A stretch of DNA of 64,000 nt, from UHGV virus genome UHGV-0222911; one strand, 5' to 3'. The notes beneath the pieces are model-generated. The model searched no databases and was not told where the DNA came from. It saw only the letters and a program-made list of their open reading frames with translations. The position numbers and the translations under genes were made by a program. The first letter of the stretch is position 1. Every line of letters starts with the position of its first letter. This document shows positions 47,139-54,680 of the stretch, in pieces. Source of the stretch: a virus.

Positions 47139-48554
47139 ATGAGCGAATTATTTAAACATGCGCACCTTCATGCAGGTCGAACTGAAAATGGTGCTGTAAA
47201 CCATACTTCATCAATGTCTGCTCTTGTAGACTTTTACAAAGCTGCTGGTTCTAGCCGTAGCAATGTAGAAATCTTACCAGACCTGTTCTACAAAGCTTTG
47301 CGTGAGGATGTTGATGTTGCAGTTCGTATTTTACTGCATATGCGAGATGTACGAGAAGGTATGGGTGAGCGTAAAGCTTTCCGAACTGTTTTAATTCAAG
47401 CAGTTGAAGATAAAGTTTTAGAACCTACACAGGTTCTTCGCATTATGGATAAGATTGCAGAGCTTGGTCGCTTTGATGACTTCAAAATCTTTGTAGGTAC
47501 TCGTTTCGAGACAGATGCCTTCAAACACTTAGAAGCAGCATTACTAGACCCTGCAACAGCAGGTTTGGCGGCTAAGTGGTTACCACGAGTCAAACCACGT
47601 CATAAGCAGTTTGTAAAACGTTTCTGCAAGTTTGCCAACTTGAGCGAGAAAGAGTACCGCACACTGTTGTCTGCACTATCTGATACAGTTGAGCAAAAAA
47701 TCTCTGCTAATGAGTTTGGTAAGATTGACTACAGTAAGATTCCTTCACTTGCTGCTGCACGCTACCAAAAACTGTTTAACCGTAAAGATGGAGAGCGATA
47801 CAAAGCTTACATCGAGTCCTTATCAAAGGGTGAGGCTAAGATTAATGCTGGTGCTGTTTACCCATACGATGTGATTAAATCTGTCAAGCATGGTAATGCA
47901 GATGTTGCTAATGAGCAGTGGAAAGCACTACCAAACTGGATGGCAGAAGGTGAAAACATCTTATGTATGTCTGATGTATCAAGTTCAATGTCTTGGGTGA
48001 ATTTTGGCTCCATTACTGCTCTGGATATTGGTGTATCACTTGCCTTGTATGTAGCAGAACGCAATACAGGCTGCTTTAAGAATGAGTTGATGGTTTATTC
48101 AACAAACCCTCACTTCATCGAACTGAGTGGTGATTTACGAAACCGTCATCGTCAGGTGATGCGACACGTTGAATATGGCTCAACTAACTTACAAGCAGCT
48201 TTTGACCGTATTCTTGAGGTAGGTAAGAGAAACAACTTGACTCAGAAAGATATGCCAAGTAAGCTTATCATCTTCTCTGATATGGAGTTCAATCAGGTTG
48301 ATGGTGCAAATGGTCGTACAAACTTTGAAGTAATTCGTAGTAAGTACAAAAAAGCTGGATACGAAATGCCACAACTAGTATTCTGGTACTTAGCAAACCG
48401 TAATGGTACTTGCGAAGTGTCTGTTAAGGATAACGGTGTAGCAATGGTATCAGGGTTCTCTCCAGCCACTTTAAAAGCTCTGCTCGGTGGTGAGAATTTT
48501 GACCCAATCAGCGTAATGCTCAAAGCAGTAATGATTGACCGTTACATCTGGTAA
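47139..48554 (+). CDS. vWA-domain protein with helical N-terminal domain (possible Ro60/TROVE-like architecture)
   Basis: 471 aa; MIDAS-type DVSSSM (DxSxS) with downstream GSTN and FSDMEF elements in the C-terminal half; N-terminal about 280 aa helical. Confidence 0.45.
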   Translation: MSELFKHAHLHAGRTENGAVNHTSSMSALVDFYKAAGSSRSNVEILPDLFYKALREDVDVAVRILLHMRDVREGMGERKAFRTVLIQAVEDKVLEPTQVLRIMDKIAELGRFDDFKIFVGTRFETDAFKHLEAALLDPATAGLAAKWLPRVKPRHKQFVKRFCKFANLSEKEYRTLLSALSDTVEQKISANEFGKIDYSKIPSLAAARYQKLFNRKDGERYKAYIESLSKGEAKINAGAVYPYDVIKSVKHGNADVANEQWKALPNWMAEGENILCMSDVSSSMSWVNFGSITALDIGVSLALYVAERNTGCFKNELMVYSTNPHFIELSGDLRNRHRQVMRHVEYGSTNLQAAFDRILEVGKRNNLTQKDMPSKLIIFSDMEFNQVDGANGRTNFEVIRSKYKKAGYEMPQLVFWYLANRNGTCEVSVKDNGVAMVSGFSPATLKALLGGENFDPISVMLKAVMIDRYIW

Positions 48555-48719: not shown

Positions 48720-48796
48720 CTCTGTTTAGCTCAGCTTGGTAGAGCGTTCCGTTTGGGGCGGTAAGGCCGGAGGTTCAAGTCCTCCAACAGAGACCA
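48720..48796 (+). tRNA. tRNA-Pro (anticodon UGG)
   Basis: Cloverleaf parsed by eye: perfect 7-bp acceptor CTCTGTT/AACAGAG, D arm GCTC/GAGC, anticodon loop TTTGGGG, T loop TTCAAGT, CCA encoded. Confidence 0.7.
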
Positions 48797-48803
48797 AATT
48801 AAT

Positions 48804-48881
48804 GTTCCAGTAGACAAAATGGTAAAGTCACCACTCTTTCAAAGTGGATATTTGAGGGTTCAAATCCCTTCTGGAACGCCA
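48804..48881 (+). tRNA. tRNA-Glu (anticodon UUC)
   Basis: Acceptor GTTCCAG/CTGGAAC, anticodon stem CCACT/AGTGG loop CTTTCAA, T arm GAGGG-TTCAAAT-CCCTT, CCA. Confidence 0.65.
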
Positions 48882-48887
48882 GTTTTG

Positions 48888-48962
48888 ACAGAAGACCAAT
48901 TACAGCAAACTTAATCTTATTCATCTGAAGGTAAATCGGACAAAGAAGAGATTTGGTCTGGT
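48888..48962 (+). ncRNA. structured element family A, copy a (conserved stem ACAGAAGACCAAT...ATTTGGTCTGG)
   Basis: 5' ACAGAAGACCNNTTACAGCAA and 3' GGTCTGG conserved in 4 copies; ends are reverse-complementary. Confidence 0.4.
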
Positions 48963-48972
48963 CATTAAGAAT

Positions 48973-49049
48973 TGCGGGTATAGAGAAAGGGCGTCTCACA
49001 TGTCTCATTAGCATGGTATCGGCAGGTTCGACTCCTGCACCCGCCTCCA
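48973..49049 (+). tRNA. tRNA with anticodon CAU (Met or Ile2); irregular 5' half
   Basis: T arm GCAGG-TTCGACT-CCTGC, 3' acceptor ACCCGCC-T-CCA, anticodon stem CATGT/GCATG loop CTCATTA; 5' acceptor pairing imperfect by eye. Confidence 0.5.
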
Positions 49050-49056
49050 AATTTAC

Positions 49057-49120
49057 AGAAGACCGTTTACAGCAATATTTATTAAATTTTTAGCGGAAAA
49101 ATTGAAAGATACGGTCTGGT
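49057..49120 (+). ncRNA. structured element family A, copy b
   Basis: ACAGAAGACCGTTTACAGCAA ... ATACGGTCTGG with internal hairpin AATTTTT-AGCGG-AAAAATT. Confidence 0.4.
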
Positions 49121-49132
49121 AATACTAAACAT

Positions 49133-49209
49133 GGTTAGGAAGCACATAAGGTATGTGCGGTCGCCTGTTAAGCGAATGGCACAGGGTTCGAATCCCTGAC
49201 TAACCGCCA
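49133..49209 (+). tRNA. tRNA-Asn (anticodon GUU)
   Basis: Acceptor GGTTAGG/ACTAACC, D arm GCAC/GTGC, anticodon loop CTGTTAA, T arm CAGGG-TTCGAAT-CCCTG, CCA. Confidence 0.65.
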
Positions 49210-49278
49210 AATTTAGGAGAGAAGCGATTGCTCACCGATTTGTAAGGTGCAAGTCCTTAGCCTGAATAGAAATTAAAT

Positions 49279-49366
49279 GTGTCGTTATCCCGTAGATGGT
49301 AGCGGTGGGGACTGTAAATCCCTTGTCATTGAGACTCGGTAGGTTCGACTCCTACACGGCACACCA
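49279..49366 (+). tRNA. tRNA-Tyr (anticodon GUA), long variable arm
   Basis: Acceptor GTGTCGT/ACGGCAC, anticodon stem GGGGA/TCCCT loop CTGTAAA, 14-nt variable arm, T arm GTAGG-TTCGACT-CCTAC, CCA. Confidence 0.65.
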
Positions 49367-49371
49367 AGTAA

Positions 49372-49450
49372 AGGTTATGTAGTTTAATCTGGTTAAAATA
49401 CTCCCCTGTCACGGGAGATGATGAGGGTTCGAATCCCTTCGTAACCGCCA
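49372..49450 (+). tRNA. tRNA-Asp (anticodon GUC)
   Basis: Acceptor GGTTATG/CGTAACC, anticodon stem CTCCC/GGGAG loop CTGTCAC, T arm GAGGG-TTCGAAT-CCCTT, CCA. Confidence 0.7.
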
Positions 49451-49529
49451 AATTATAATAAGTATTTCAAAATGATGTTTTGAGAGGGCTATTTAGCCCC
49501 TCCCTTAAAGAGTTCTTACGAGTATTCTT

Positions 49530-49612
49530 TAAAGGAGCAGAAGACCAAATTCAGCAAGTTACTTAAAATTTCAAGCCAATTTAATTTTGAAAAATTTAAA
49601 ACTTGGTCTGGC
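49530..49612 (+). ncRNA. structured element family A, copy c
   Basis: GCAGAAGACCAAATTCAGCAA ... AACTTGGTCTGG. Confidence 0.4.
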
Positions 49613-49623
49613 TCAACAAATTT

Positions 49624-49756
49624 ACAGAAGACCGTTTACAGCAAACTTTAAACAATCTATTTCTCCGGTAAAGAAAAGGCGAAGGTTCGATTCCTTCACT
49701 CGGCAGATGTCGAGTTGGTGTAATGGTAGCACTTAAGATGATAAACAACGGTCTGG
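49624..49756 (+). ncRNA. structured element family A, copy d, enclosing a tRNA-like module (T arm then acceptor/D-arm-like segment)
   Basis: Outer stem CAGAAGACCGTT/AACGGTCTGG; inside GAAGG-TTCGATT-CCTTC + ACTCGGC followed by GTCGAGT-TG-GTGTAATGGTAGCAC (acceptor strands complementary but in 3'-then-5' order). Confidence 0.4.
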
Positions 49757-49900
49757 TAATTATCTTTGCAGATAAGTTATTAAGCTTACCTGTGAGTATG
49801 CGACCACAAAGGGTGAAAGGGTAAATTCTAGATTTAAACCCAACAAGGCACATCGCTACAGACCTTAAGCAAGTCTGGGTAGCTTATCTACAAAGATAAT
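49757..49900 (+). ncRNA. candidate structured RNA bounded by inverted repeats TATCTTTGCAGATAAG / CTTATCTACAAAGATA
   Basis: Terminal 16-nt arms reverse-complementary (1 mismatch); internal hairpins CAGACC-TTAAGCAA-GTCTG and palindrome TAAATTCTAGATTTA. Confidence 0.3.
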
Positions 49901-49905
49901 TTAAT

Positions 49906-49981
49906 GGAAGTGTAGCAGAATGGTGATGCGGCAGACTTTTAATCTGACAGGCGATGGGTTCGAATCCCTCCACTTCTACCA
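49906..49981 (+). tRNA. tRNA-Lys (anticodon UUU)
   Basis: Acceptor GGAAGTG/CACTTCT, anticodon loop CTTTTAA, T loop TTCGAAT, CCA; paralog of tRNA at 51982. Confidence 0.55.
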
Positions 49982-50060
49982 AATTCACCCTTAACTGAGA
50001 AACACCTGCGCGGCTGGAAACACCCACTCAACAGTTTCTCTAACTAGGGTACTTATTCTG

Positions 50061-50136
50061 GTTCAGTCGCAGATAAGGTAATGCAAGGGTCTCATAAGCC
50101 CTATGAATGTGGGTTCGATTCCCATCTGAACCTCCA
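50061..50136 (+). tRNA. tRNA with anticodon CAU (Met or Ile2)
   Basis: Perfect acceptor GGTTCAG/CTGAACC, anticodon stem AGGGT/GCCCT loop CTCATAA, T arm GTGGG-TTCGATT-CCCAT, CCA. Confidence 0.65.
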
Positions 50137-50137
50137 A

Positions 50138-50213
50138 GCTGGTATAGTTAAGAAGGTTATAACACTCCCCTGATAAGGGAACATCGGTGGTTCGATTCCA
50201 CCTACCAGTACCA
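50138..50213 (+). tRNA. tRNA-Ile (anticodon GAU)
   Basis: Acceptor GCTGGTA/TACCAGT, D arm GTTA/TAAC, anticodon loop CTGATAA, T arm GGTGG-TTCGATT-CCACC, CCA. Confidence 0.65.
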
Positions 50214-50228
50214 ATTTCAATAAAGTTG

Positions 50229-50258
50229 TTGACATTGAGATGTGACCACTTTATAGTA
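50229..50258 (+). promoter_or_regulatory. sigma70-like promoter inside tRNA cluster
   Basis: TTGACA-17-TATAGT. Confidence 0.4.
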
Positions 50259-50461
50259 ACCTTAGTTTTCGTTGCGTAGCGTCTATTTTGCAAATTTAAA
50301 ATAAATGCAAACGACAATGTTTTTCTGGCAGTAGCTTGATAGGCTAAACACCAGTGAGGTCTTCCAATCCCTCATCAAAGAATTTGGCGTACTCGCCCAC
50401 GGTATGATTAATAAGGTGGGCATCTTTAAGGGCTTTCTAAGAGAGTCTTTAAAGATAATTA

Positions 50462-50543
50462 CGGGGCGTATCTCAGCGGTCTTCTAAACCGCCGTTAACC
50501 GAGTAAGTGGAGTATGCGGGTTCGAGTCCTGCCGCCTCGACCA
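50462..50543 (+). tRNA. atypical tRNA-like gene (anticodon-like loop CTTCTAA = UCU, Arg?) immediately upstream of HNH gene
   Basis: Perfect 7-bp acceptor CGGGGCG/CGCCTCG, T arm GCGGG-TTCGAGT-CCTGC, CCA, hairpin GCGGT-CTTCTAA-ACCGC; no canonical D arm found by eye, 23-nt extra region. Confidence 0.35.
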
Positions 50544-50557
50544 ATTTTGGAGAAATC

Positions 50558-50905
50558 ATGAAAACTTGTATTAGGTGCAAACTTAGCAAGGATGAAAATG
50601 ATTTCTACATGAAAGATGGTAGGAGAACTCATTCATACTGTAAAAAGTGTGTTAATGAGCAAACCATAGAAAGACAAAGAGCACTTAAACTCTTAGCTAT
50701 TGAGTACAAAGGTGGGGTTTGTCATGATTGTGGTAAGAAGTATCATCCAGCAGTGTATGACTTCCATCATTTGAATCCTTCAGATAAAGATTTTAACATT
50801 GGTCATAGGAAAAGCCTTAAGTTCTCTCAAGAACTAAAAGATGAACTTGACAAATGTGTTTTGCTATGTTCAAATTGCCATAGGGTAAGACATGCAAAAT
50901 ATTAG
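50558..50905 (+). CDS. HNH endonuclease with N-terminal zinc-finger (inserted in tRNA cluster)
   Basis: Track ORF 50507.. overlaps tRNA; trimmed to MKTCIRCKL; HHLNPSDKDF...CVLLCSNCHRVRH HNH/Zn motif; paralog of 51134..51538. Confidence 0.55.
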   Translation: MKTCIRCKLSKDENDFYMKDGRRTHSYCKKCVNEQTIERQRALKLLAIEYKGGVCHDCGKKYHPAVYDFHHLNPSDKDFNIGHRKSLKFSQELKDELDKCVLLCSNCHRVRHAKY

Positions 50906-51048
50906 TTAGCAGATTACTTAGACGACCTTAGCGGGTCTTCCTGTAGGGAGGTGGTCTGTATCTCATGTTTTCCAGAACATGTAAATAATCTGAGAAGGGG
51001 CTTTACAGTGTTGAGATAATACGGTAAGCTTCGAATTATAGTTTTAAT

Positions 51049-51119
51049 AGGGGTGAGCTATGGCAGCAATAGAGTCTCCAAAATTCTTGATTAGAGTTCG
51101 AATCTCTACACCCATGCCA
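51049..51119 (+). tRNA. compact tRNA-like gene, anticodon loop CTCCAAA (CCA, Trp?)
   Basis: Acceptor AGGGGTG/CACCCAT (1 mismatch), anticodon stem AGAGT/ATTCT, T arm TAGAG-TTCGAAT-CTCTA, CCA; shortened D arm. Confidence 0.35.
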
Positions 51120-51133
51120 GAACAGGTGCTTGT

Positions 51134-51538
51134 ATGAAACTTTGTAGAAAATGTTCTCAAGAAAAGCCTTTAAGCTGCTTTCATAAAAGAGGTAATGGCT
51201 ATCAGTCTGCTTGCAAAGATTGTAAAGCTAAGTACTCAGCAAAGAGATACAAAGAAGACCCTACTTATAAAGCAAAAAGAAAAGTTAGGGCAAAATATGA
51301 CAAAAAGAGGAACAGAGAGTTCCTTAGTAGATATAAGAAGTTTTGCAAATGCAGAATATGTGGCGAATCTGAGCCAGTAGCTTTGGATTTTCATCACTTA
51401 GACCCTAAAGAGAAAGATTTTGCTCCAAGCAATCTTAAAACTTACTCTAGGGGCACTATTAAGCGTGAAGTCCGTAAGTGTGTTGTGCTTTGTTCAAACT
51501 GTCATAGGAAAGTTCATGCAGGACTGTTAAGTATTTAA
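51134..51538 (+). CDS. HNH endonuclease with N-terminal zinc-finger (inserted in tRNA cluster)
   Basis: 134 aa; CRKCSQEK...CKDCKAK and HHLDPKEKDF...CVVLCSNCHRKVH. Confidence 0.55.
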   Translation: MKLCRKCSQEKPLSCFHKRGNGYQSACKDCKAKYSAKRYKEDPTYKAKRKVRAKYDKKRNREFLSRYKKFCKCRICGESEPVALDFHHLDPKEKDFAPSNLKTYSRGTIKREVRKCVVLCSNCHRKVHAGLLSI

Positions 51539-51551
51539 CAGTCTTATTAGG

Positions 51552-51639
51552 GGTAGGTAGCGGCTAATGGTAGCCAAACTGTCTTGAAAACAGTTGCCAC
51601 TGTAGAGATACGGTGAGGGTTCGACTCCTTTACTTACCG
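51552..51639 (+). tRNA. tRNA-Ser (anticodon UGA), long variable arm
   Basis: Acceptor GGTAGGT/ACTTACC, D arm GGCT/AGCC, anticodon stem ACTGT/ACAGT loop CTTGAAA, 20-nt variable arm, T arm GAGGG-TTCGACT-CCTTT; CCA not fully encoded. Confidence 0.6.
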
Positions 51640-51796
51640 CCTAATAAGATTTAAAGCCAAGCTTCATTCGGATGTTGCTTTGGTATCCCTCGTGTATTGT
51701 CGTACACACTGATAAAGCACCTAGTAGGTGTCACGGAGAAGAGATAATATCAAGCTCTCCAAAGGTTCTAGTCACCGGATTAAACAAGACTATGCA

Positions 51797-51822
51797 AAGA
51801 CCTTTTTAGGTCTTTTTAGAGG
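51797..51822 (+). terminator. hairpin with T-runs inside tRNA cluster
   Basis: AGACC-TTTTTA-GGTCT followed by TTTTAG. Confidence 0.3.
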
Positions 51823-51896
51823 GCTTCTAAGGTTATTACAGCTTGTTGTGGAACCTTGTTGCTTAGGTTCTTAGAAGTTCTCTAAAAAGATTTAAT

Positions 51897-51974
51897 GGGA
51901 GATTGACGGTAATTGGTAAACCTACCATCCTTAGAAGTTGGTGTTTGAGGGTTCGAATCCCTTGTCTCCTACCA
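51897..51974 (+). tRNA. tRNA with anticodon UAG (Leu-type anticodon, short variable arm)
   Basis: Acceptor GGGAGAT/GTCTCCT, anticodon stem CCATC/GTTGG loop CTTAGAA, T arm GAGGG-TTCGAAT-CCCTT, CCA; D arm weak by eye. Confidence 0.45.
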
Positions 51975-51981
51975 AATTAAT

Positions 51982-52057
51982 GCAGGTGTAGCAAAATGGT
52001 TATGCGGCTGACTCTTAATCAGTAAGACGATGGGTTCAATTCCCTCCACCTGTACCA
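51982..52057 (+). tRNA. tRNA-Lys (anticodon CUU)
   Basis: Acceptor GCAGGTG/CACCTGT, anticodon loop CTCTTAA, T loop TTCAATT, CCA; paralog of tRNA at 49906. Confidence 0.55.
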
Positions 52058-52063
52058 AACAAT

Positions 52064-52139
52064 GGGGTCATAGTTTATATGGTTAAAATTCGAGTTTTGC
52101 AAACTTGGGAACTGAGTTCAATTCTCAGTGACTCCACCA
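52064..52139 (+). tRNA. tRNA-Ala (anticodon UGC)
   Basis: Acceptor GGGGTCA/TGACTCC, D arm GTTT/AAAT, anticodon stem CGAGT/ACTTG loop TTTGCAA, T arm CTGAG-TTCAATT-CTCAG, CCA. Confidence 0.7.
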
Positions 52140-52145
52140 ATTAGT

Positions 52146-52220
52146 GCATCCATAGTTTAAACGGGAAAATTACAGTCTTCCAAACTGAGGTTGAGGGTTC
52201 GATTCCCTCTGGATGCTCCA
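52146..52220 (+). tRNA. tRNA-Gly (anticodon UCC)
   Basis: Perfect acceptor GCATCCA/TGGATGC, anticodon loop CTTCCAA, T arm GAGGG-TTCGATT-CCCTC, CCA. Confidence 0.7.
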
Positions 52221-52227
52221 AATTAAT

Positions 52228-52304
52228 GCTGCTTTCGTATAATTGGCTATTACACATCCCTTGTAAGGATGGAAATGCAGGTTCGAGTCCTGTGAGCAGC
52301 ACCA
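52228..52304 (+). tRNA. tRNA-Thr (anticodon UGU)
   Basis: Acceptor GCTGCTT/GAGCAGC, anticodon stem CATCC/GGATG loop CTTGTAA, T arm GCAGG-TTCGAGT-CCTGT, CCA. Confidence 0.7.
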
Positions 52305-52305
52305 A

Positions 52306-52395
52306 TTCAGAGGTCAAGTGAAAGACCGCTGGTGTCAACTGAAGACCGTAACAAATTCCACGGAGTTGAGTTAGCGGCACAACTTCAGACCTCTT
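52306..52395 (+). ncRNA. structured element related to family A (contains TGAAGACCGTAACAAATTCC), flanked by CAGAGGTC / GACCTCT inverted repeat
   Basis: Lies between tRNA-Thr and tRNA-Val; no tRNA fold; shares GAAGACCGT core with family A. Confidence 0.3.
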
Positions 52396-52399
52396 TCAC

Positions 52400-52474
52400 A
52401 CTCGCTTAGTTTATATGGTAAAACATCACCCTTACAAGATGAAGAAAAAGGTTCAAGTCCTTTAGTGAGTACCA
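52400..52474 (+). tRNA. tRNA-Val (anticodon UAC)
   Basis: Acceptor ACTCGCT/AGTGAGT, D arm GTTT/AAAC, anticodon loop CTTACAA, T arm AAAGG-TTCAAGT-CCTTT, CCA. Confidence 0.7.
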
Positions 52475-52475
52475 T

Positions 52476-52553
52476 GTTCCAGTATCCCAATTGGCAGAGG
52501 ATGCAAGCTCAAACCTTGTATTAGTGACGGTTCGAATCCGTCTTGGAACACCA
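52476..52553 (+). tRNA. tRNA with anticodon CAA (Leu-type anticodon, short variable arm)
   Basis: Acceptor GTTCCAG/TTGGAAC, anticodon stem GCAAG/CTTGT loop CTCAAAC, T arm GACGG-TTCGAAT-CCGTC, CCA. Confidence 0.5.
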
Positions 52554-52569
52554 ATTTTAGGAGAACACT

Positions 52570-52677
52570 ATGATTAATAAATCAATTGCAAAAAAGTTTA
52601 TAGCGTCATTCAAAAACAGGCGTAAAAACAACTCTTGTGAAAAACTGTATGGTGTTCTTGTAGGTAAGCAGGATTAG
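52570..52677 (+). CDS. possible micro-ORF (35 aa) overlapping the 5' end of tRNA-Arg
   Basis: TAGGAGA RBS 5 nt upstream of ATG; MINKSIAKKFIASFKNRRKNNSCEKLYGVLVGKQD; below track cutoff; may be non-coding spacer. Confidence 0.15.
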   Translation: MINKSIAKKFIASFKNRRKNNSCEKLYGVLVGKQD

Positions 52678-52743
52678 TTCAAATGGATAGAGCAACAGTC
52701 TACGAAGCTGTTAATAGGGGTTCGAATCCCTTATCCTGCACCA
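52668..52743 (+). tRNA. tRNA-Arg (anticodon ACG)
   Basis: Perfect acceptor GCAGGAT/ATCCTGC, D arm GTTC/GAGC, anticodon stem ACAGT/GCTGT loop CTACGAA, T arm AGGGG-TTCGAAT-CCCTT, CCA. Confidence 0.7.
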
Positions 52744-52762
52744 ATTTAAAGAGGCTATTTAG

Positions 52763-53320
52763 ATGAGATATTTGAAGTATGCTTCATGGATTTTCTTAGC
52801 TTTGTTAGAGCCATTTGCAGCAATCTTAGCAGTTATCTTAGCACCTTTCGTAGTCCCATTCTACAGTGAGAAGAAAGGACACTTACCTTTCGGCTTCAGA
52901 TGGATGGAGACATATGACAACCCAATTGATGGTGATAAAGGGCATGTCGAACGATGGGCTAAGATTAGAAAGATTGGCAAGCTTGGTGTCTATATGCAGA
53001 GAGTCGGTTGGCTCTGGAGAAACAAAGCTTATAACTTCTCTTACCATGTATTAGGAAGAGATGTAAAAGATGTTACTAAGTGGAAAGGTAATATCAACGT
53101 AAGTTCTAACCCTGAAGATAATCAGACAGGTTATCTCCTAATGTGGAACAGTAATGCTTGGGGATTATTCGCTTTTATCCCATCAATTAAAGTCTTTGGT
53201 AAACAATTCTACTGGAGAATTTATGTTGGATGGAAGCTAAAAAGTGTTGTCCCAGAAGAAAGAGCATTCTCAAGGGAAAGAGTTATGTTGGCATTCTTTA
53301 TTCATCCACTAAGAAAGTAA
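52763..53320 (+). CDS. hypothetical membrane protein embedded in tRNA cluster
   Basis: 185 aa; N-terminal hydrophobic WIFLALLEPFAAILAVILAPFVVPF. Confidence 0.4.
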   Translation: MRYLKYASWIFLALLEPFAAILAVILAPFVVPFYSEKKGHLPFGFRWMETYDNPIDGDKGHVERWAKIRKIGKLGVYMQRVGWLWRNKAYNFSYHVLGRDVKDVTKWKGNINVSSNPEDNQTGYLLMWNSNAWGLFAFIPSIKVFGKQFYWRIYVGWKLKSVVPEERAFSRERVMLAFFIHPLRK

Positions 53321-53328
53321 AGATTTAA

Positions 53329-53404
53329 AGGGGATTAGTTTACAAGGTTAAAACCTCGGTCTTTGAAATCGAAGAAGTTGGTTCAATTCCAACATCCCCC
53401 GCCA
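53329..53404 (+). tRNA. tRNA-Gln (anticodon UUG)
   Basis: Acceptor AGGGGAT/ATCCCCC (1:72 unpaired), D arm GTTT/AAAC, anticodon stem TCGGT/ATCGA loop CTTTGAA, T arm GTTGG-TTCAATT-CCAAC, CCA. Confidence 0.65.
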
Positions 53405-53406
53405 AT

Positions 53407-53485
53407 GCTCCATTACTCCAATTGGTAGAGAGGCCAGACTTAAAATCTGTGTTATGTATCGGTTCGAATCCGATATGGAGTACCA
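53407..53485 (+). tRNA. tRNA with anticodon UAA (Leu-type anticodon, short variable arm)
   Basis: Acceptor GCTCCAT/ATGGAGT, anticodon loop CTTAAAA between CAGA/TCTG stem, T arm ATCGG-TTCGAAT-CCGAT, CCA. Confidence 0.5.
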
Positions 53486-53490
53486 AATTT

Positions 53491-53566
53491 AGCGGTATAG
53501 CATAACTGGCAATGCAGCAGTCTCTGAAGCTGTCTTATTAAGGTTCAAATCCTTATGCCGCTGCCA
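53491..53566 (+). tRNA. tRNA-Gln (anticodon CUG)
   Basis: Acceptor AGCGGTA/TGCCGCT, D arm GCAT/ATGC, anticodon stem GCAGT/GCTGT loop CTCTGAA, T arm TAAGG-TTCAAAT-CCTTA, CCA. Confidence 0.65.
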
Positions 53567-53597
53567 CTTCTAAGGGTTCTTACGAGAGTCCTTAAAT

Positions 53598-53673
53598 GTG
53601 GCCTTATCATAAATGGTAATGACCCATGCTGTGAACATGGTCTATACGGGTTCAAATCCCGTAGGTCACCCCA
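53598..53673 (+). tRNA. tRNA-His (anticodon GUG)
   Basis: Acceptor GTGGCCT/AGGTCAC, D arm TCAT/ATGA, anticodon stem CCATG/CATGG loop CTGTGAA, T arm ACGGG-TTCAAAT-CCCGT, CCA. Confidence 0.7.
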
Positions 53674-53679
53674 ATTTAT

Positions 53680-53755
53680 AGTCCAAGTAGCTTATATGGT
53701 TAAAGCGCGTGTCTGAAAAACATGAGAAGAGGGTTCAAATCCCACTGGACTACCA
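53680..53755 (+). tRNA. tRNA-Phe (anticodon GAA)
   Basis: Acceptor TAGTCCA/TGGACTA, D arm GCTT/AAGC, anticodon stem CGTGT/ACATG loop CTGAAAA, T arm GAGGG-TTCAAAT-CCCAC. Confidence 0.6.
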
Positions 53756-53771
53756 ATTTCAAAGGTGCTTA

Positions 53772-54458
53772 ATGAAAGAGATGACAGAACAAGGTAAGGA
53801 GATTTTTAATCTCTTAAAAACTGGTAAAGGGTTTTCTAACCCCCTTATTACTGGTGCAGCAGTTCTCGGTGGAACCGTAGCTGCCTCTACATCACTTGTA
53901 AGCTCTATTAGCTCTGTATCAGACCCTACAGTAAAGGATAAGCTTGTTGCTGCTGGACTTACAACAGTTCTGCTTAACAGCTTTACCACGAGTCTGACAA
54001 GCACTACATCAACTACCAAAACACTGACAGATTACGGTCAAAAGTCCATTGATGAGTTTTCATCACGTATGCAGGTAGCAAAAGGTTATTCTAATGTTAT
54101 GGGTGCAGCAGGTGAACAAGTTGGCTGTACACCATTTAGTGGTATTATGGGTGTTGCTACAGAGTATGGTCAAAAAGCTATTGATACGATTAATAGTGCA
54201 CTAGACGGTGTTAATGATGTATTAAGTGACTTACAAGACGCTATTGACAAAGGTCTTGATACTATTTCTGATTTAGCTAACCAAGCTGTTAGTAAGATTA
54301 ATGAAGGTATCTCGAAGATTACAGCTTATGCAGATGAAGTTGTGCAGATGATTGAAGAAGAAGCTGCCCTTATTGCAGAGTACCTTAAAACGAATATCAA
54401 TGGGTTCTTAGCAGGTATCTACCAGACTGGTTTGATGATGCTTGTAAAACTGGTGTAA
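53772..54458 (+). CDS. hypothetical Ser/Thr-rich protein with N-terminal hydrophobic region
   Basis: Track ORF 53709.. overlaps tRNA-Phe; trimmed to MKEMTEQGKEIF; 228 aa. Confidence 0.4.
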   Translation: MKEMTEQGKEIFNLLKTGKGFSNPLITGAAVLGGTVAASTSLVSSISSVSDPTVKDKLVAAGLTTVLLNSFTTSLTSTTSTTKTLTDYGQKSIDEFSSRMQVAKGYSNVMGAAGEQVGCTPFSGIMGVATEYGQKAIDTINSALDGVNDVLSDLQDAIDKGLDTISDLANQAVSKINEGISKITAYADEVVQMIEEEAALIAEYLKTNINGFLAGIYQTGLMMLVKLV

Positions 54459-54507
54459 TTGACACTATTGCAACACCAGAAATGAAGAACGCATTACAGA
54501 AATAAAT

Positions 54508-54600
54508 GGAAGATTAACCCTAAAAGGTAAGGGAGCAGTTTGCTAAACTGCCAGTAGCTGAGAAATCGGTGTACCAGTTCAAGTCTGGTATCTTCCTCCA
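54508..54600 (+). tRNA. tRNA-Ser (anticodon GCU), long variable arm
   Basis: Perfect acceptor GGAAGAT/ATCTTCC, anticodon stem GCAGT/ACTGC loop TTGCTAA, 21-nt variable arm, T arm ACCAG-TTCAAGT-CTGGT, CCA. Confidence 0.65.
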
Positions 54601-54604
54601 ATTT

Positions 54605-54680
54605 GAATCCGTGACAGAAATGGCTATGTGCCTGTCTGCAAAACAGGTTTATAAGGGTTCGAGTCCCTTCGGATTCTCCA
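54605..54680 (+). tRNA. tRNA-Cys (anticodon GCA)
   Basis: Perfect acceptor GAATCCG/CGGATTC, anticodon stem CCTGT/ACAGG loop CTGCAAA, T arm AAGGG-TTCGAGT-CCCTT, CCA. Confidence 0.7.

What the first reader, a model, noticed from the sequence alone, without database searches (positions are those of the whole stretch)
50462..51538. Two paralogous Zn-finger HNH endonuclease genes inserted in the tRNA cluster, each directly preceded by an atypical tRNA-like gene
The HNH genes at 50558..50905 and 51134..51538 are paralogs (shared HHLxPxDKDF...CVxLCSNCHR). Each starts about 15 nt after a tRNA-like element (50462..50543 and 51049..51119) that has a perfect acceptor/T-arm/CCA but an irregular D-arm region (one has no recognisable D arm and a 23-nt extra segment; the other is compact at about 71 nt). 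Either homing-endonuclease insertion has remodelled adjacent tRNAs, or these are unusual but functional tRNAs (anticodon loops read as UCU Arg and CCA Trp, which would complete the set), or the tRNA-like structures act as processing or mobility signals for the endonuclease genes.
Basis: seen in the sequence. Interest (0 to 1): 0.55.

Follow-up and report, generated by a model that had tools for sequence, protein, structure and literature searches.

The report
Rewired arginine tRNA beside homing endonucleases
Beside two mobile endonuclease genes in this Felix-O1-like phage lies what looks like a working arginine tRNA whose D-arm pieces are encoded in swapped order; the design is conserved in more than a hundred phage sequences, is missed by gene finders, and departs from the cloverleaf layout said to hold for all known bacterial tRNAs.

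Summary
Two paralogous HNH genes (50558-50905, 51134-51538) each start 14 nt after a tRNA-like gene. The HNH genes did not make the tRNAs odd.

**HNH genes.** Both are sporadic mobile inserts, present in 26 and 22 of about 266 related phage records. HNH1 is a clean 356-bp indel. A sister phage has the identical upstream element without it.

**Element A (50462-50543).** It belongs to a phage-restricted family of at least 110 distinct sequences, found in Felixounavirus, T5-like, rV5-like, phi92-like and jumbo phages and many IMG/VR contigs.
- Every member carries an arginine anticodon: UCU, CCU, ACG or UCG.
- Acceptor, anticodon and T stems covary strongly.
- A 3-bp helix (11-13 with 40-42) encloses the anticodon arm. 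Its middle pair is Watson-Crick in 105 of 105 sequences, using all four pair types.
- The block after that helix, GNGU-AAYUGGA, reads like canonical positions 10-20: D-stem 5' strand, then a D loop with G18, G19 and A20.
- The gene order is therefore acceptor, [22-48], [10-21], T arm.
- It most likely decodes AGA/AGG, which make up 43% of Arg codons here.

**Element B.** This is a compact tRNA-Trp that travels with HNH2 as a 497-bp cassette.

No description was found in the open-access literature searched. No expression or charging data exist.

The parts
50229..50257 (+). Sigma-70-like promoter (TTGACA, 17 nt, TATAGT) upstream of element A, followed by a conserved leader of about 200 nt
   Evidence: Matches 11 of 12 consensus positions. 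The region is conserved in relatives. It is a consensus match only; function was not tested.
50462..50543 (+). Element A: non-cloverleaf ('block-swapped D-arm') tRNA-Arg(UCU), 79 nt plus encoded CCA
   Evidence: Rfam tRNA 31.7 bits with the D arm deleted. Family model R1 scores it 100.6 bits against 32 or less for canonical tRNAs. In the family alignment, 99.3% of cells are paired and the covariation score is 0.772 against 0.19 for shuffles.
50462..50468 (+). Acceptor stem, 5' strand (pairs with 50533-50539); followed by U8 A9 at 50469-50470
   Evidence: Six of the 7 pairs show changes on both sides across the family.
50471..50475 (+). U10 C11 U12 C13 A14, equivalent to the canonical D-stem 3' strand (22-25) plus position 26. 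C11-C13 pair with 50501-50503.
   Evidence: The 12:41 pair is UA 55, CG 22, AU 19, GC 9 and never non-Watson-Crick, with both positions free in the search pattern. It is among the top pairs of an unbiased mutual-information scan. The rival partner 49-51 breaks in every variant.
50476..50492 (+). Anticodon arm: 5-bp stem and loop CUUCUAA (anticodon UCU at 50483-50485)
   Evidence: All 5 pairs covary. The whole family carries only Arg anticodons.
50493..50500 (+). 8-nt linker CGUUAACC, in the place of a variable loop; 3-10 nt long in other family members, mostly 8, 5 or 4
50501..50515 (+). G40 A41 G42 U43 A44 A45 G46 U47 G48 G49 A50 G51 U52 A53 U54, equivalent to canonical positions 10-21 (D-stem 5' strand plus a D loop with A14, G18 G19, A20, A21) followed by a position-48-like U
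   Evidence: The motif matches the canonical tRNA-Arg D arm, for example GUUC-AAUUGGAUA in L003. With the blocks swapped back, sequences align end to end to an HMM of 58 canonical tRNA-Arg genes in 102 of 110 cases, against 3 of 110 with the block shuffled.
50516..50543 (+). T arm (GCGGG UUCGAGU CCUGC), acceptor 3' strand, discriminator A, and CCA
50548..50903 (+). 356-bp HNH1 insertion (boundaries +/-1 nt), absent from O157 typing phage 8, which otherwise has identical flanks
   Evidence: Alignment. HNH1 is present in only 26 phage records.
50558..50905 (+). HNH1 CDS, 115 aa: zinc-ribbon plus HNH endonuclease, with a GGAG ribosome-binding site 7 nt upstream
51043..51539 (+). 497-bp cassette (compact tRNA-Trp plus HNH2). 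In most Felixounaviruses this position holds an 85-nt Trp-like gene of different sequence.
   Evidence: Alignment with Alf5. Record counts are 22 to 23 for the cassette and 236 for the other allele.
51049..51119 (+). Element B: compact tRNA-Trp(CCA), 68 nt plus CCA, with a short or ambiguous D arm; private C->A at 51114
   Evidence: ARAGORN; Rfam 24.4 bits. The nearest relative outside the group is a 74-nt tRNA-Trp of Vibrio phage K566.
51134..51538 (+). HNH2 CDS, 134 aa, paralogue of HNH1

Best explanation
The window is the tRNA operon of a Felixounavirus, and two independent things are superimposed in it.

**(a) Element A.** This is most likely a working tRNA-Arg(UCU) of a non-cloverleaf architecture.
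- Compared with a normal tRNA-Arg, the block holding the D-stem 5' strand and D loop (canonical 10-21) lies after the block holding the D-stem 3' strand, anticodon arm and variable linker (canonical 22-48).
- The two D-stem strands still pair (shown by covariation). The secondary structure therefore becomes a three-way junction whose long arm is D-stem plus anticodon stem.
- The relocated AAYUGGA loop can still reach the T loop and present A20 to arginyl-tRNA synthetase (inferred).
- It supplies decoding of AGA/AGG, codons the phage uses heavily. No other phage tRNA in the window's tRNA cluster has the cognate UCU or CCU anticodon.

**(b) The HNH genes.** HNH1 and HNH2 are free-standing homing-endonuclease genes of one family that lodges in tRNA clusters.
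- HNH1 inserted 4 nt after the CCA of element A.
- HNH2 arrived together with its own compact tRNA-Trp allele and replaced the resident Trp-like gene.
- The oddity of the tRNAs is not a consequence of these insertions.

**Status of each step.** Shown: the family, its structure, its Arg-only anticodons, the indels and the sporadic distribution. Inferred: aminoacylation, ribosomal function, the 3D fold and endonuclease activity.
For: **Family and structure.**
- BLAST finds full-length copies at 83-90% identity in unrelated phage groups.
- Pattern scans give 43, 50 and more than 120 IMG/VR loci.
- Only two MAG contigs match among genomes of 185,579 species, and none of 5,426 E. coli genomes does.
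- In the 37-sequence alignment, 99.3% of cells are paired and 15 of 20 pairs show double changes.
- An unbiased mutual-information scan returns exactly these helices, including 12:41.
- The 12:41 pair is Watson-Crick in 105 of 105 sequences with four pair types.
- Model R1 gives 77-103 bits for members and 32 or less for canonical tRNAs.

**Arginine identity.**
- After swapping the blocks back, anticodons are UCU 87, ACG 11, CCU 10 and UCG 1.
- C35 and U/G36 are always present. The discriminator is A or G in 35 of 37 window-type sequences. GGA is invariant.
- The bacterial Arg identity set is A/G73, A20, C35 and U/G36 (PMC9976931).

**Decoding role.**
- A canonical tRNA-Arg(UCU) occupies the same locus in other Felixounaviruses.
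- Only 2 of 161 occurrences have a canonical Arg tRNA with the same anticodon in the held flanks.
- AGA plus AGG make up 43% of Arg codons in the window.
- The Felix O1 genome paper expected an AGA tRNA and found none (PMC3185647). Felix O1 does carry element A (L004:975-1053).

**Block swap.** Swapped-back sequences align full length to a canonical tRNA-Arg HMM in 102 of 110 cases (median 22.6 bits). Shuffled or reversed blocks give 3 and 0 of 110, and native sequences 0 of 110.

**Feasibility.** E. coli's translation machinery accepts an engineered D-arm-less tRNA (PMC11551756).

**HNH mobility.** Supported by the clean indels and by presence in 26 and 22 of about 266 records.
Against: - There is no expression, processing, aminoacylation or ribosome data for any family member.
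- The key helix is only 3 bp, and two of its pairs never vary.
- Nearest-neighbour energies slightly disfavour that helix (-22.5 versus -23.7 kcal/mol), and RNAalifold does not predict it.
- Equating A50 with A20 and G48G49 with G18G19 is an inference from motif and spacing. No covariation can test invariant positions.
- Most family members were retrieved with sequence patterns that fixed parts of the conserved motifs. Invariance of those positions is therefore partly by construction. Positions 8-14 and the 12:41 pair were unconstrained in the first two and in all three patterns respectively.
- The ARAGORN swap-back test is weak. It detects 109 of 110 swapped-back sequences but also 84 of 110 with a shuffled block.
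- Held flanks are short, so the non-redundancy count is a lower-quality estimate.
- The literature check covers open-access papers only.
Confidence: 0.7

Rival explanations
1. Homing-endonuclease insertion damaged or remodelled canonical tRNA genes, leaving irregular D-arm regions.
For: In this genome both atypical elements directly precede an HNH gene. Element B is found almost only together with HNH2. In several unrelated phages a different endonuclease gene sits 4-25 nt after a family member.
Against: Element A is identical in a genome without HNH1. It is conserved, with covarying stems, in more than 100 distinct sequences, most without any endonuclease neighbour. The HNH1 insertion starts 4 nt after the CCA and does not touch the gene. 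Element B is a whole-gene replacement and is related to a Vibrio phage tRNA-Trp.
Confidence: 0.04
2. Element A is a tRNA mimic that is not used in translation. It could be a decoy or sponge for a host tRNA-targeting defence nuclease, for ArgRS or for a modification enzyme, or an RNase P/RNase Z processing punctuation mark in the operon transcript.
For: Phage tRNAs are known to counter tRNA-cleaving defences and differ from host tRNAs around the D loop (PMC12475279; abstract of PMC13096335). The architecture is unusual enough that the ribosome or EF-Tu might not accept it. No functional data exist.
Against: The family keeps every feature needed for decoding: a 7-bp acceptor stem, CCA, the T loop, U33, a purine at 37 and the Arg identity set. 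It has diversified to four different Arg anticodons in the same scaffold. It replaces a canonical tRNA-Arg(UCU) rather than accompanying one. Codon demand for AGA is high. A processing mark would not need a conserved anticodon.
Confidence: 0.17
3. The tRNA-like elements serve mainly as expression or mobility signals for the endonuclease genes. Possible roles are a 5' processing site that frees the HNH mRNA, or the recognition site for homing.
For: A 14-nt spacing to the start codon, with a ribosome-binding site, is found in both cases. Of 80 IMG/VR relatives of these HNH genes, 55 lie within 1.2 kb of a tRNA. Of 9 with a same-strand tRNA 150 nt or less upstream, 6 follow a canonical tRNA-Arg(UCU), and 2 more follow a family member. 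Arg(UCU) makes up 10% of all nearby tRNAs.
Against: Most family members, and most Felixounavirus copies (about 117 records against 26 with HNH1), have no endonuclease gene. The element's conservation therefore cannot depend on the endonuclease. This can be a secondary use at most.
Confidence: 0.08
4. Both elements are decaying tRNA pseudogenes.
For: tRNAscan-based annotations label them 'tRNA-OTHER', 'Undet' or 'Pseudo'. The window copy of element B carries an acceptor-stem mismatch. A real tRNA remnant exists nearby at 49641-49705.
Against: Compensatory changes maintain every helix across deep divergence. Single-stranded core nucleotides are invariant while stems turn over completely.
Confidence: 0.02

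Closest known systems
Canonical phage tRNA-Arg(UCU), such as the allele at the same locus in E. coli O157 typing phage 15 (L003:890-966) and T4 tRNA-Arg (own knowledge)
   Same: Same anticodon loop (CUUCUAA), same genomic slot, same presumed job of decoding AGA for an AT-rich phage. Same identity nucleotides (A/G73, C35, U36, a GGA motif) and the same T loop.
   Different: The canonical gene has the order 8-9, D arm, 26, anticodon arm, variable loop. Element A has 8-9, D-stem 3' strand, 26, anticodon arm, linker, D-stem 5' strand, D loop. There is no D hairpin. The secondary structure is a three-way rather than a four-way junction.
Metazoan mitochondrial D-arm-lacking tRNA-Ser(AGY), and the engineered D-arm-less 'mini HisT' used by E. 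coli (PMC11551756)
   Same: No D hairpin between the acceptor and anticodon stems. These cases show that translation can use such RNAs, and mini HisT shows that E. coli's machinery tolerates it.
   Different: Those RNAs have lost the D arm and the D-T loop contact, and fold into a Y shape. Element A keeps both D-stem strands (paired, covarying) and a D-loop-like GG(A) motif, only in a different order. It is natural, cytosolic (it would act in the bacterial host cell) and phage-encoded.
Permuted and split tRNA genes (Cyanidioschyzon merolae permuted tRNAs, Nanoarchaeum split tRNAs; own knowledge)
   Same: tRNA segments are encoded in non-canonical order.
   Different: Those are rearranged only at the gene level and are processed into ordinary cloverleaf tRNAs. 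In the circular permutations the 3' half lies upstream of the 5' half, joined through the acceptor ends. Here the 5' and 3' acceptor strands sit at the normal ends. Restoring the canonical order would need two cuts and two ligations, so the mature RNA is expected to stay rearranged.
Free-standing homing endonucleases in phage tRNA clusters: T4 SegB (PMC2330249); HNH endonucleases of the T5 tRNA region (own knowledge)
   Same: A small endonuclease gene lies between tRNA genes. It is sporadic among close relatives, and adjacent tRNA sequence is co-inherited (the Trp plus HNH2 cassette).
   Different: SegB is a GIY-YIG enzyme, while these are zinc-ribbon plus HNH proteins (phrog_2255). Neither cleavage sites nor activity are known for the two genes here.

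Membership tests
tRNA (Rfam RF00005, cloverleaf) | 7-bp acceptor stem, discriminator and 3' CCA | tested here: met
   Element A: 7 pairs (one G.U), A73, encoded CCA. Six of the 7 pairs covary.
tRNA (Rfam RF00005, cloverleaf) | T arm: 5-bp stem and a 7-nt loop UUCRANY with G53-C61 | tested here: met
   GCGGG UUCGAGU CCUGC. G59-C67 (equivalent to G53-C61) is invariant.
tRNA (Rfam RF00005, cloverleaf) | Anticodon arm: 5-bp stem and a 7-nt loop with U33 and a purine at 37 | tested here: met
   GCGGU CUUCUAA ACCGC. All 5 pairs covary.
tRNA (Rfam RF00005, cloverleaf) | D-arm hairpin between positions 9 and 26 | tested here: not met
   Only 5 nt separate U8-A9 from the anticodon stem. The Rfam alignment deletes the D arm, and ARAGORN finds nothing (0 of 110 native sequences).
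tRNA (Rfam RF00005, cloverleaf) | Score at or above the Rfam gathering threshold | tested here: met
   Element A scores 31.7 against 29. Element B scores 24.4, which is below it.
Bacterial tRNA-Arg (identity set A/G73, A20, C35, U/G36; PMC9976931) | C35 and U36 or G36 | tested here: met
   All 109 classifiable members carry UCU, CCU, ACG or UCG.
Bacterial tRNA-Arg (identity set A/G73, A20, C35, U/G36; PMC9976931) | A or G at the discriminator position | tested here: met
   A73 in the window; A or G in 35 of 37 window-type sequences. Other subfamilies vary more.
Bacterial tRNA-Arg (identity set A/G73, A20, C35, U/G36; PMC9976931) | A20 in the D loop, directly after G18 G19 | tested here: inconclusive
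   An invariant UGGA is present (G48 G49 A50), but in a relocated loop. Whether ArgRS reads it as A20 cannot be decided from sequence.
Bacterial tRNA-Arg (identity set A/G73, A20, C35, U/G36; PMC9976931) | Aminoacylation with arginine | not testable with these tools
   Needs an in vitro ArgRS assay or an acid-gel Northern blot.
Mitochondrial-type D-arm-lacking tRNA | Loss of the D stem and of the D-loop/T-loop contact; short variable region | tested here: not met
   Both D-stem strands are present and pair. A GG-containing loop is retained, and the region after the anticodon arm is 23 nt long.
Circularly permuted tRNA gene (C. merolae type) | 3' half encoded upstream of the 5' half, with acceptor ends joined by a linker that is excised | tested here: not met
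   The acceptor 5' and 3' strands lie at the two ends of the gene, with CCA at the 3' end.
Free-standing HNH homing endonuclease | HNH (beta-beta-alpha-metal) motif | tested here: met
   phrog_2255 at E 6e-39 and 1.5e-45, with the HH...N...H pattern and CxxC pairs conserved. Pfam HNH is matched only below its cut-off.
Free-standing HNH homing endonuclease | Presence/absence polymorphism with precise boundaries among close relatives | tested here: met
   A 356-bp indel for HNH1 and a 497-bp cassette for HNH2. They occur in 26 and 22 of about 266 records.
Free-standing HNH homing endonuclease | Site-specific cleavage of the endonuclease-less allele and preferential inheritance in co-infection | not testable with these tools
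   Needs cleavage assays and mixed infections.

The most novel reading that the evidence does not exclude
Phages of enterobacteria and many uncultured phages use a natural, translationally active tRNA class that is not a cloverleaf. It is an arginine tRNA in which two adjacent blocks (10-21 and 22-48) are swapped. The D stem closes over the anticodon arm, giving a three-way junction, while the L-shape contacts and ArgRS recognition are kept. The design may have arisen by tandem duplication and partial deletion. It may persist because it escapes host tRNA-targeting nucleases, or homing endonucleases that recognise canonical tRNA-Arg genes.
Probability: 0.55. Interest if true: 0.92.

Novelty: new variant of a known kind. 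Interest (0 to 1): 0.85.

Why it matters
[quoted passage not shown] A natural tRNA with rearranged core topology that works with E. coli's ArgRS, EF-Tu, RNase P and ribosome would be a counter-example. It would also be a ready-made test of which parts of the tRNA core are topologically necessary.
- **Annotation.** The element is missed or labelled 'OTHER/Undet/Pseudo' in hundreds of phage genomes. Phage tRNA repertoires and codon-adaptation analyses are therefore systematically short of an AGA decoder. One example is the 'missing' AGA tRNA of Felix O1 (PMC3185647).
- **Defence and engineering.** It is a candidate for evasion of tRNA-directed antiphage defence and a possible orthogonal scaffold for tRNA engineering.
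- **The endonuclease part.** This is ordinary, but it gives clean natural examples of cassette-type homing next to tRNA genes.

Tried and rejected
- **Y RNA idea.** I considered that the 471-aa protein upstream of the cluster might be a Ro60-like protein, making element A a Y RNA. Pfam gives only DUF7788/DUF2828, and Rfam shows no Y RNA. The idea was dropped.
- **Alternative partner for C11-C13.** The second GAG (49-51) breaks in all three variants of the 37-sequence alignment, so it was rejected.
- **Hairpins within the 23-nt segment.** RNAfold proposes CCG/UGG and RNAalifold proposes C32-G40/G33-C39. Both rest on invariant bases and do not exist in the other subfamilies.
- **ARAGORN on swapped-back sequences.** It detected 109 of 110. 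Controls with a shuffled or reversed block were also mostly detected (84 and 105 of 110). The test therefore mainly measures spacing, and I replaced it with an HMM comparison.
- **First HMM attempt.** It failed because of stray characters in the ARAGORN output.
- **PDB sequence search with HNH2.** It gave only E about 0.4 matches to a nicking endonuclease.
- **Literature searches.** Six were aimed at a description of such a tRNA, including one for the conserved sequence itself, and none found one. One further search call failed on a short term.
- **Immunity polymorphisms.** I found no consistent polymorphism flanking the HNH1 insertion site. Any protection of the HNH1-bearing allele probably comes from the insertion splitting the site. 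This is an inference.
Full report
**What the window is**

The region from tRNA-Ile to tRNA-Ser matches 266 phage records, almost all Felixounavirus (Felix O1-like myoviruses of Escherichia, Salmonella and Shigella). Only Escherichia phage VpaE1_ev78 matches over the full length. ARAGORN finds 26 tRNA genes at 48720-54680, all on the + strand.

**Checking the observation**

- The two ORFs are real and paralogous: 33% identity, E 1e-15. Both match phrog_2255 'HNH endonuclease'. Pfam HNH models are matched only below threshold.
- Each ATG lies 14 nt after the CCA of a tRNA-like element.
- Element A (50462-50543) is not called by ARAGORN. The Rfam tRNA model scores it 31.7 bits (gathering score 29), with the D arm deleted and a 20-nt insertion after the anticodon arm.
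- Element B (51049-51119) is called tRNA-Trp(CCA) by ARAGORN but scores only 24.4 bits in Rfam, with a non-standard D stem.
- In this window B carries a private C->A change at 51114 that breaks the 2:71 pair. All relatives have C.

**The HNH genes are mobile, and they did not create the odd tRNAs**

An alignment of six genomes shows three things.
- O157 typing phage 8 has element A base for base but lacks HNH1. The difference is a clean 356-bp indel (50548-50903) starting 4 nt after the CCA.
- Typing phage 15 has, at the same place, a canonical 77-nt tRNA-Arg(UCU) of different sequence and no HNH1.
- Alf5 has HNH1 but, instead of the 497 bp holding element B and HNH2 (51043-51539), an unrelated 85-nt Trp-like gene.

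Counts in the phage collection:

| Feature | Records |
|---|---|
| HNH1 | 26 |
| HNH2 | 22 |
| Element B | 23, plus 3 distant Vibrio phages |
| Alf5-type Trp-like gene | 236 |
| Element A at 95% identity or more | about 117 |
| Canonical Arg allele | about 160, including other Ounavirinae |

Both HNH genes therefore behave as sporadic free-standing homing-endonuclease genes. HNH2 travels with its own tRNA-Trp allele.

**Element A belongs to a large family**

- BLAST with the 82 nt alone finds full-length matches at 83-90% identity in unrelated phages. These include T5-like Klebsiella and Serratia phages (Roth37, Kamaji), Vequintavirinae (Mydo, W70), phi92-like phages, Asteriusvirus jumbo phages (Ecwhy_1, SD-6_S16), Erwinia phage Ep030 and a Vibrio phage. 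Nearly all copies are unannotated or labelled 'tRNA-OTHER' or 'Undet'.
- Their alignment shows complete turnover of the three stems through compensating changes, while UAUCNCA (positions 8-14) and the 23-nt segment stay almost constant.
- The same motif matched 3 contigs among genomes of 185,579 bacterial and archaeal species. Two are real copies on MAG contigs and one is a chance match.
- It matched none of 5,426 complete E. coli genomes.

**Secondary structure**

- On 37 distinct window-type sequences I tested the structure acceptor / 11-13:40-42 / anticodon stem / T stem. It has 99.3% of cells paired, 15 of 20 pairs with double changes, and a covariation score of 0.772 against 0.19 for shuffles and 0.15 or less for slid partners.
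- The alternative partner 49-51 fails in every variant.
- In the larger set (104 distinct sequences), the middle pair of the short helix is U-A 55, C-G 22, A-U 19 and G-C 9, with no mismatch. Both positions were free in the search pattern.
- A mutual-information scan with no structure supplied returns exactly these helices, including 12:41, and no other long-range pair.
- A covariance model built from the family scores members at 77-103 bits and canonical tRNAs at 32 bits or less. A few diverged relatives score 50-68 bits.
- Weak points: two of the three pairs of the short helix are invariant, nearest-neighbour energy does not favour the helix, and RNAalifold does not predict it.

**It is an arginine tRNA**

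- Across all subfamilies (linker of 3-10 nt, mostly 8, 5 or 4) the anticodons are UCU 87, ACG 11, CCU 10 and UCG 1. No other amino acid appears.
- The bacterial arginine identity set is A/G73, A20, C35 and U/G36 (PMC9976931). C35 and U/G36 are always present. The discriminator is a purine in 35 of 37 window-type sequences. An invariant UGGA supplies a candidate G18-G19-A20.

**The block-swap reading**

- Positions 40-50 (G N G U A A Y U G G A) read like canonical positions 10-20. Compare GUUC-AAUUGGA in the canonical allele.
- Positions 10-14 (U C N C A) read like canonical 22-26. They are followed by the anticodon arm (27-43) and a linker in the place of the variable loop. The last two bases before the T stem (A, U) sit where A21 and U48 would.
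- The gene order is therefore acceptor, 8-9, [22-48], [10-21], T arm.
- When the two blocks are exchanged in silico, the sequences align end to end to an HMM of 58 canonical phage tRNA-Arg genes from the same loci in 102 of 110 cases (median 22.6 bits). The figures are 3 of 110 for a shuffled block, 0 of 110 for a reversed block and 0 of 110 for native sequences. The swapped-back version scores higher than the shuffled one in 107 of 110.
- ARAGORN detects 0 of 110 native and 109 of 110 swapped-back sequences, all as tRNA-Arg. It also accepts most shuffled controls, so that test mainly reflects spacing.
- My inference from known tRNA geometry is as follows. In a normal tRNA, the 3' end of the anticodon stem (position 43) stacks almost directly under position 10, and position 21 lies next to 48. 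The new connections 43-linker-10 and 21-49 should therefore be sterically easy. The usual contacts (U8-A14, G18/G19 with the T loop, A20 exposed) could be kept. This is not shown.

**Evidence that it decodes**

- A canonical tRNA-Arg(UCU) and element A are alternative occupants of one locus in Felixounavirus.
- Of 161 family occurrences in held loci, only 2 have a canonical Arg tRNA with the same anticodon nearby. Many have canonical Arg tRNAs with other anticodons.
- In the window, AGA and AGG are 34% and 9% of Arg codons, at 13.9 and 3.8 per 1000. The only other Arg tRNA in the cluster is ACG.
- The Felix O1 genome paper lists AGA as strongly over-used and remarks that a tRNA for it was expected but not found (PMC3185647). 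Felix O1 carries element A at L004:975-1053.
- No expression or charging data exist for any family member. A non-decoding mimic therefore remains possible (I give it about 0.17).

**Link to endonucleases**

- Immediately downstream of family members, different phages carry different endonuclease genes. These are HNH1 in Felixounavirus, NUMOD4 plus HNH_3 proteins in Roth37 and Kamaji, HNH_3 proteins in L039 and L045, and an HNH protein in L067. Two uncharacterised ORFs occupy the same position in L027 and L041. Most members have no endonuclease neighbour.
- Of 80 IMG/VR relatives of HNH1 and HNH2, 55 lie within 1.2 kb of a tRNA. Of the 9 with a same-strand tRNA 150 nt or less upstream, 6 follow a canonical tRNA-Arg(UCU), and 2 more follow a family member. 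Arg(UCU) is 10% of nearby tRNAs. Some of these loci are near-duplicates, so the evidence is moderate.
- This suggests the HNH1 lineage homes to the 3' flank of tRNA-Arg(UCU) genes.

**Comparison with what is known**

- The endonuclease part resembles T4 SegB and other free-standing homing endonucleases in phage tRNA clusters (PMC2330249) and is ordinary.
- Element A is a tRNA in every tested respect except the defining D hairpin.
- It differs from mitochondrial D-arm-less tRNAs, which have lost the stem and the loop contact.
- It differs from permuted or split tRNA genes, which are processed back into cloverleaves.
- Six of the literature searches, including one for the conserved sequence, looked for a description and found none. 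The library holds open-access papers only.

**Verdict**

I classify it as a new variant of a known kind, with high interest.

Noticed in passing
L005:1443-1527 (Alf5); same site as window 51043-51539: Most Felixounaviruses (236 records, almost all unannotated, missed by ARAGORN) carry a different atypical tRNA-Trp(CCA)-like gene here. It has a 9-nt connector GAUGUUAAG between the acceptor and D stems (normally 2 nt) and a conserved C31.A39 mismatch. Its D stem and anticodon stem covary in Sf17, Moogle and Wc4-1.
   Followed up: partly
window 50494-50498; L005 connector: The pentamer GUUAA occurs both in the 8-nt linker of element A (CGUUAAYC) and in the extra connector of the Alf5-type Trp-like gene (GAUGUUAAG). 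Both insertions would lie near the hinge of the tRNA. A shared structural or recognition role is possible.
   Followed up: no
window 51114: A private C->A substitution breaks the 2:71 acceptor pair of the compact tRNA-Trp. All 23 related records have C. It could be a real mutation or a sequencing error. It shifted ARAGORN's boundaries by 2 nt.
   Followed up: partly
window 49641-49705 and 49709-49732: The 455-nt gap between tRNA-Asp and tRNA-Lys holds tRNA remnants. One is a degenerate tRNA-like element with a good T arm but a mismatched acceptor stem (Rfam 24.7 bits). It is followed by a sequence resembling a tRNA 5' half, GUCGAGUUGGUGUAAUGGUAGCAC.
   Followed up: partly
window 50229-50461: A near-consensus sigma-70 promoter (TTGACA, 17 nt, TATAGT) is followed by a leader of about 200 nt, conserved across Felixounaviruses, that runs up to element A. 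Only weak sub-threshold tmRNA-like Rfam matches are found there.
   Followed up: no
L006:113-197 (Klebsiella phage Roth37): A second 'tRNA-OTHER' in the same T5-like phage has normal acceptor, D and T arms but about 20 extra nucleotides forming a hairpin in the anticodon region.
   Followed up: no
L029:1071-2090 approx.: An RNA ligase gene (PF09414 plus a PHA02142 OB domain) starts 38 nt downstream of a family member in an IMG/VR contig. This may relate to tRNA repair.
   Followed up: no
L068:1458-1540 and L068:2103-2179 (Neisseriaceae MAG contig): The contig holds two family members. One is interrupted right after the 5' strand of the T stem by unrelated sequence. The other is intact, with a 4-nt linker.
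   Followed up: no
L060:2689-2763; L065:13348-13426: Some contigs carry two members of the rearranged family with different anticodons or subtypes, for example ACG plus UCU in L060 and CCU plus a diverged UCU in L065.
   Followed up: partly
window 47139-48554: A 471-aa protein with DUF2828 and DUF7788 domains is encoded immediately upstream of the tRNA cluster. Its function is unknown.
   Followed up: no
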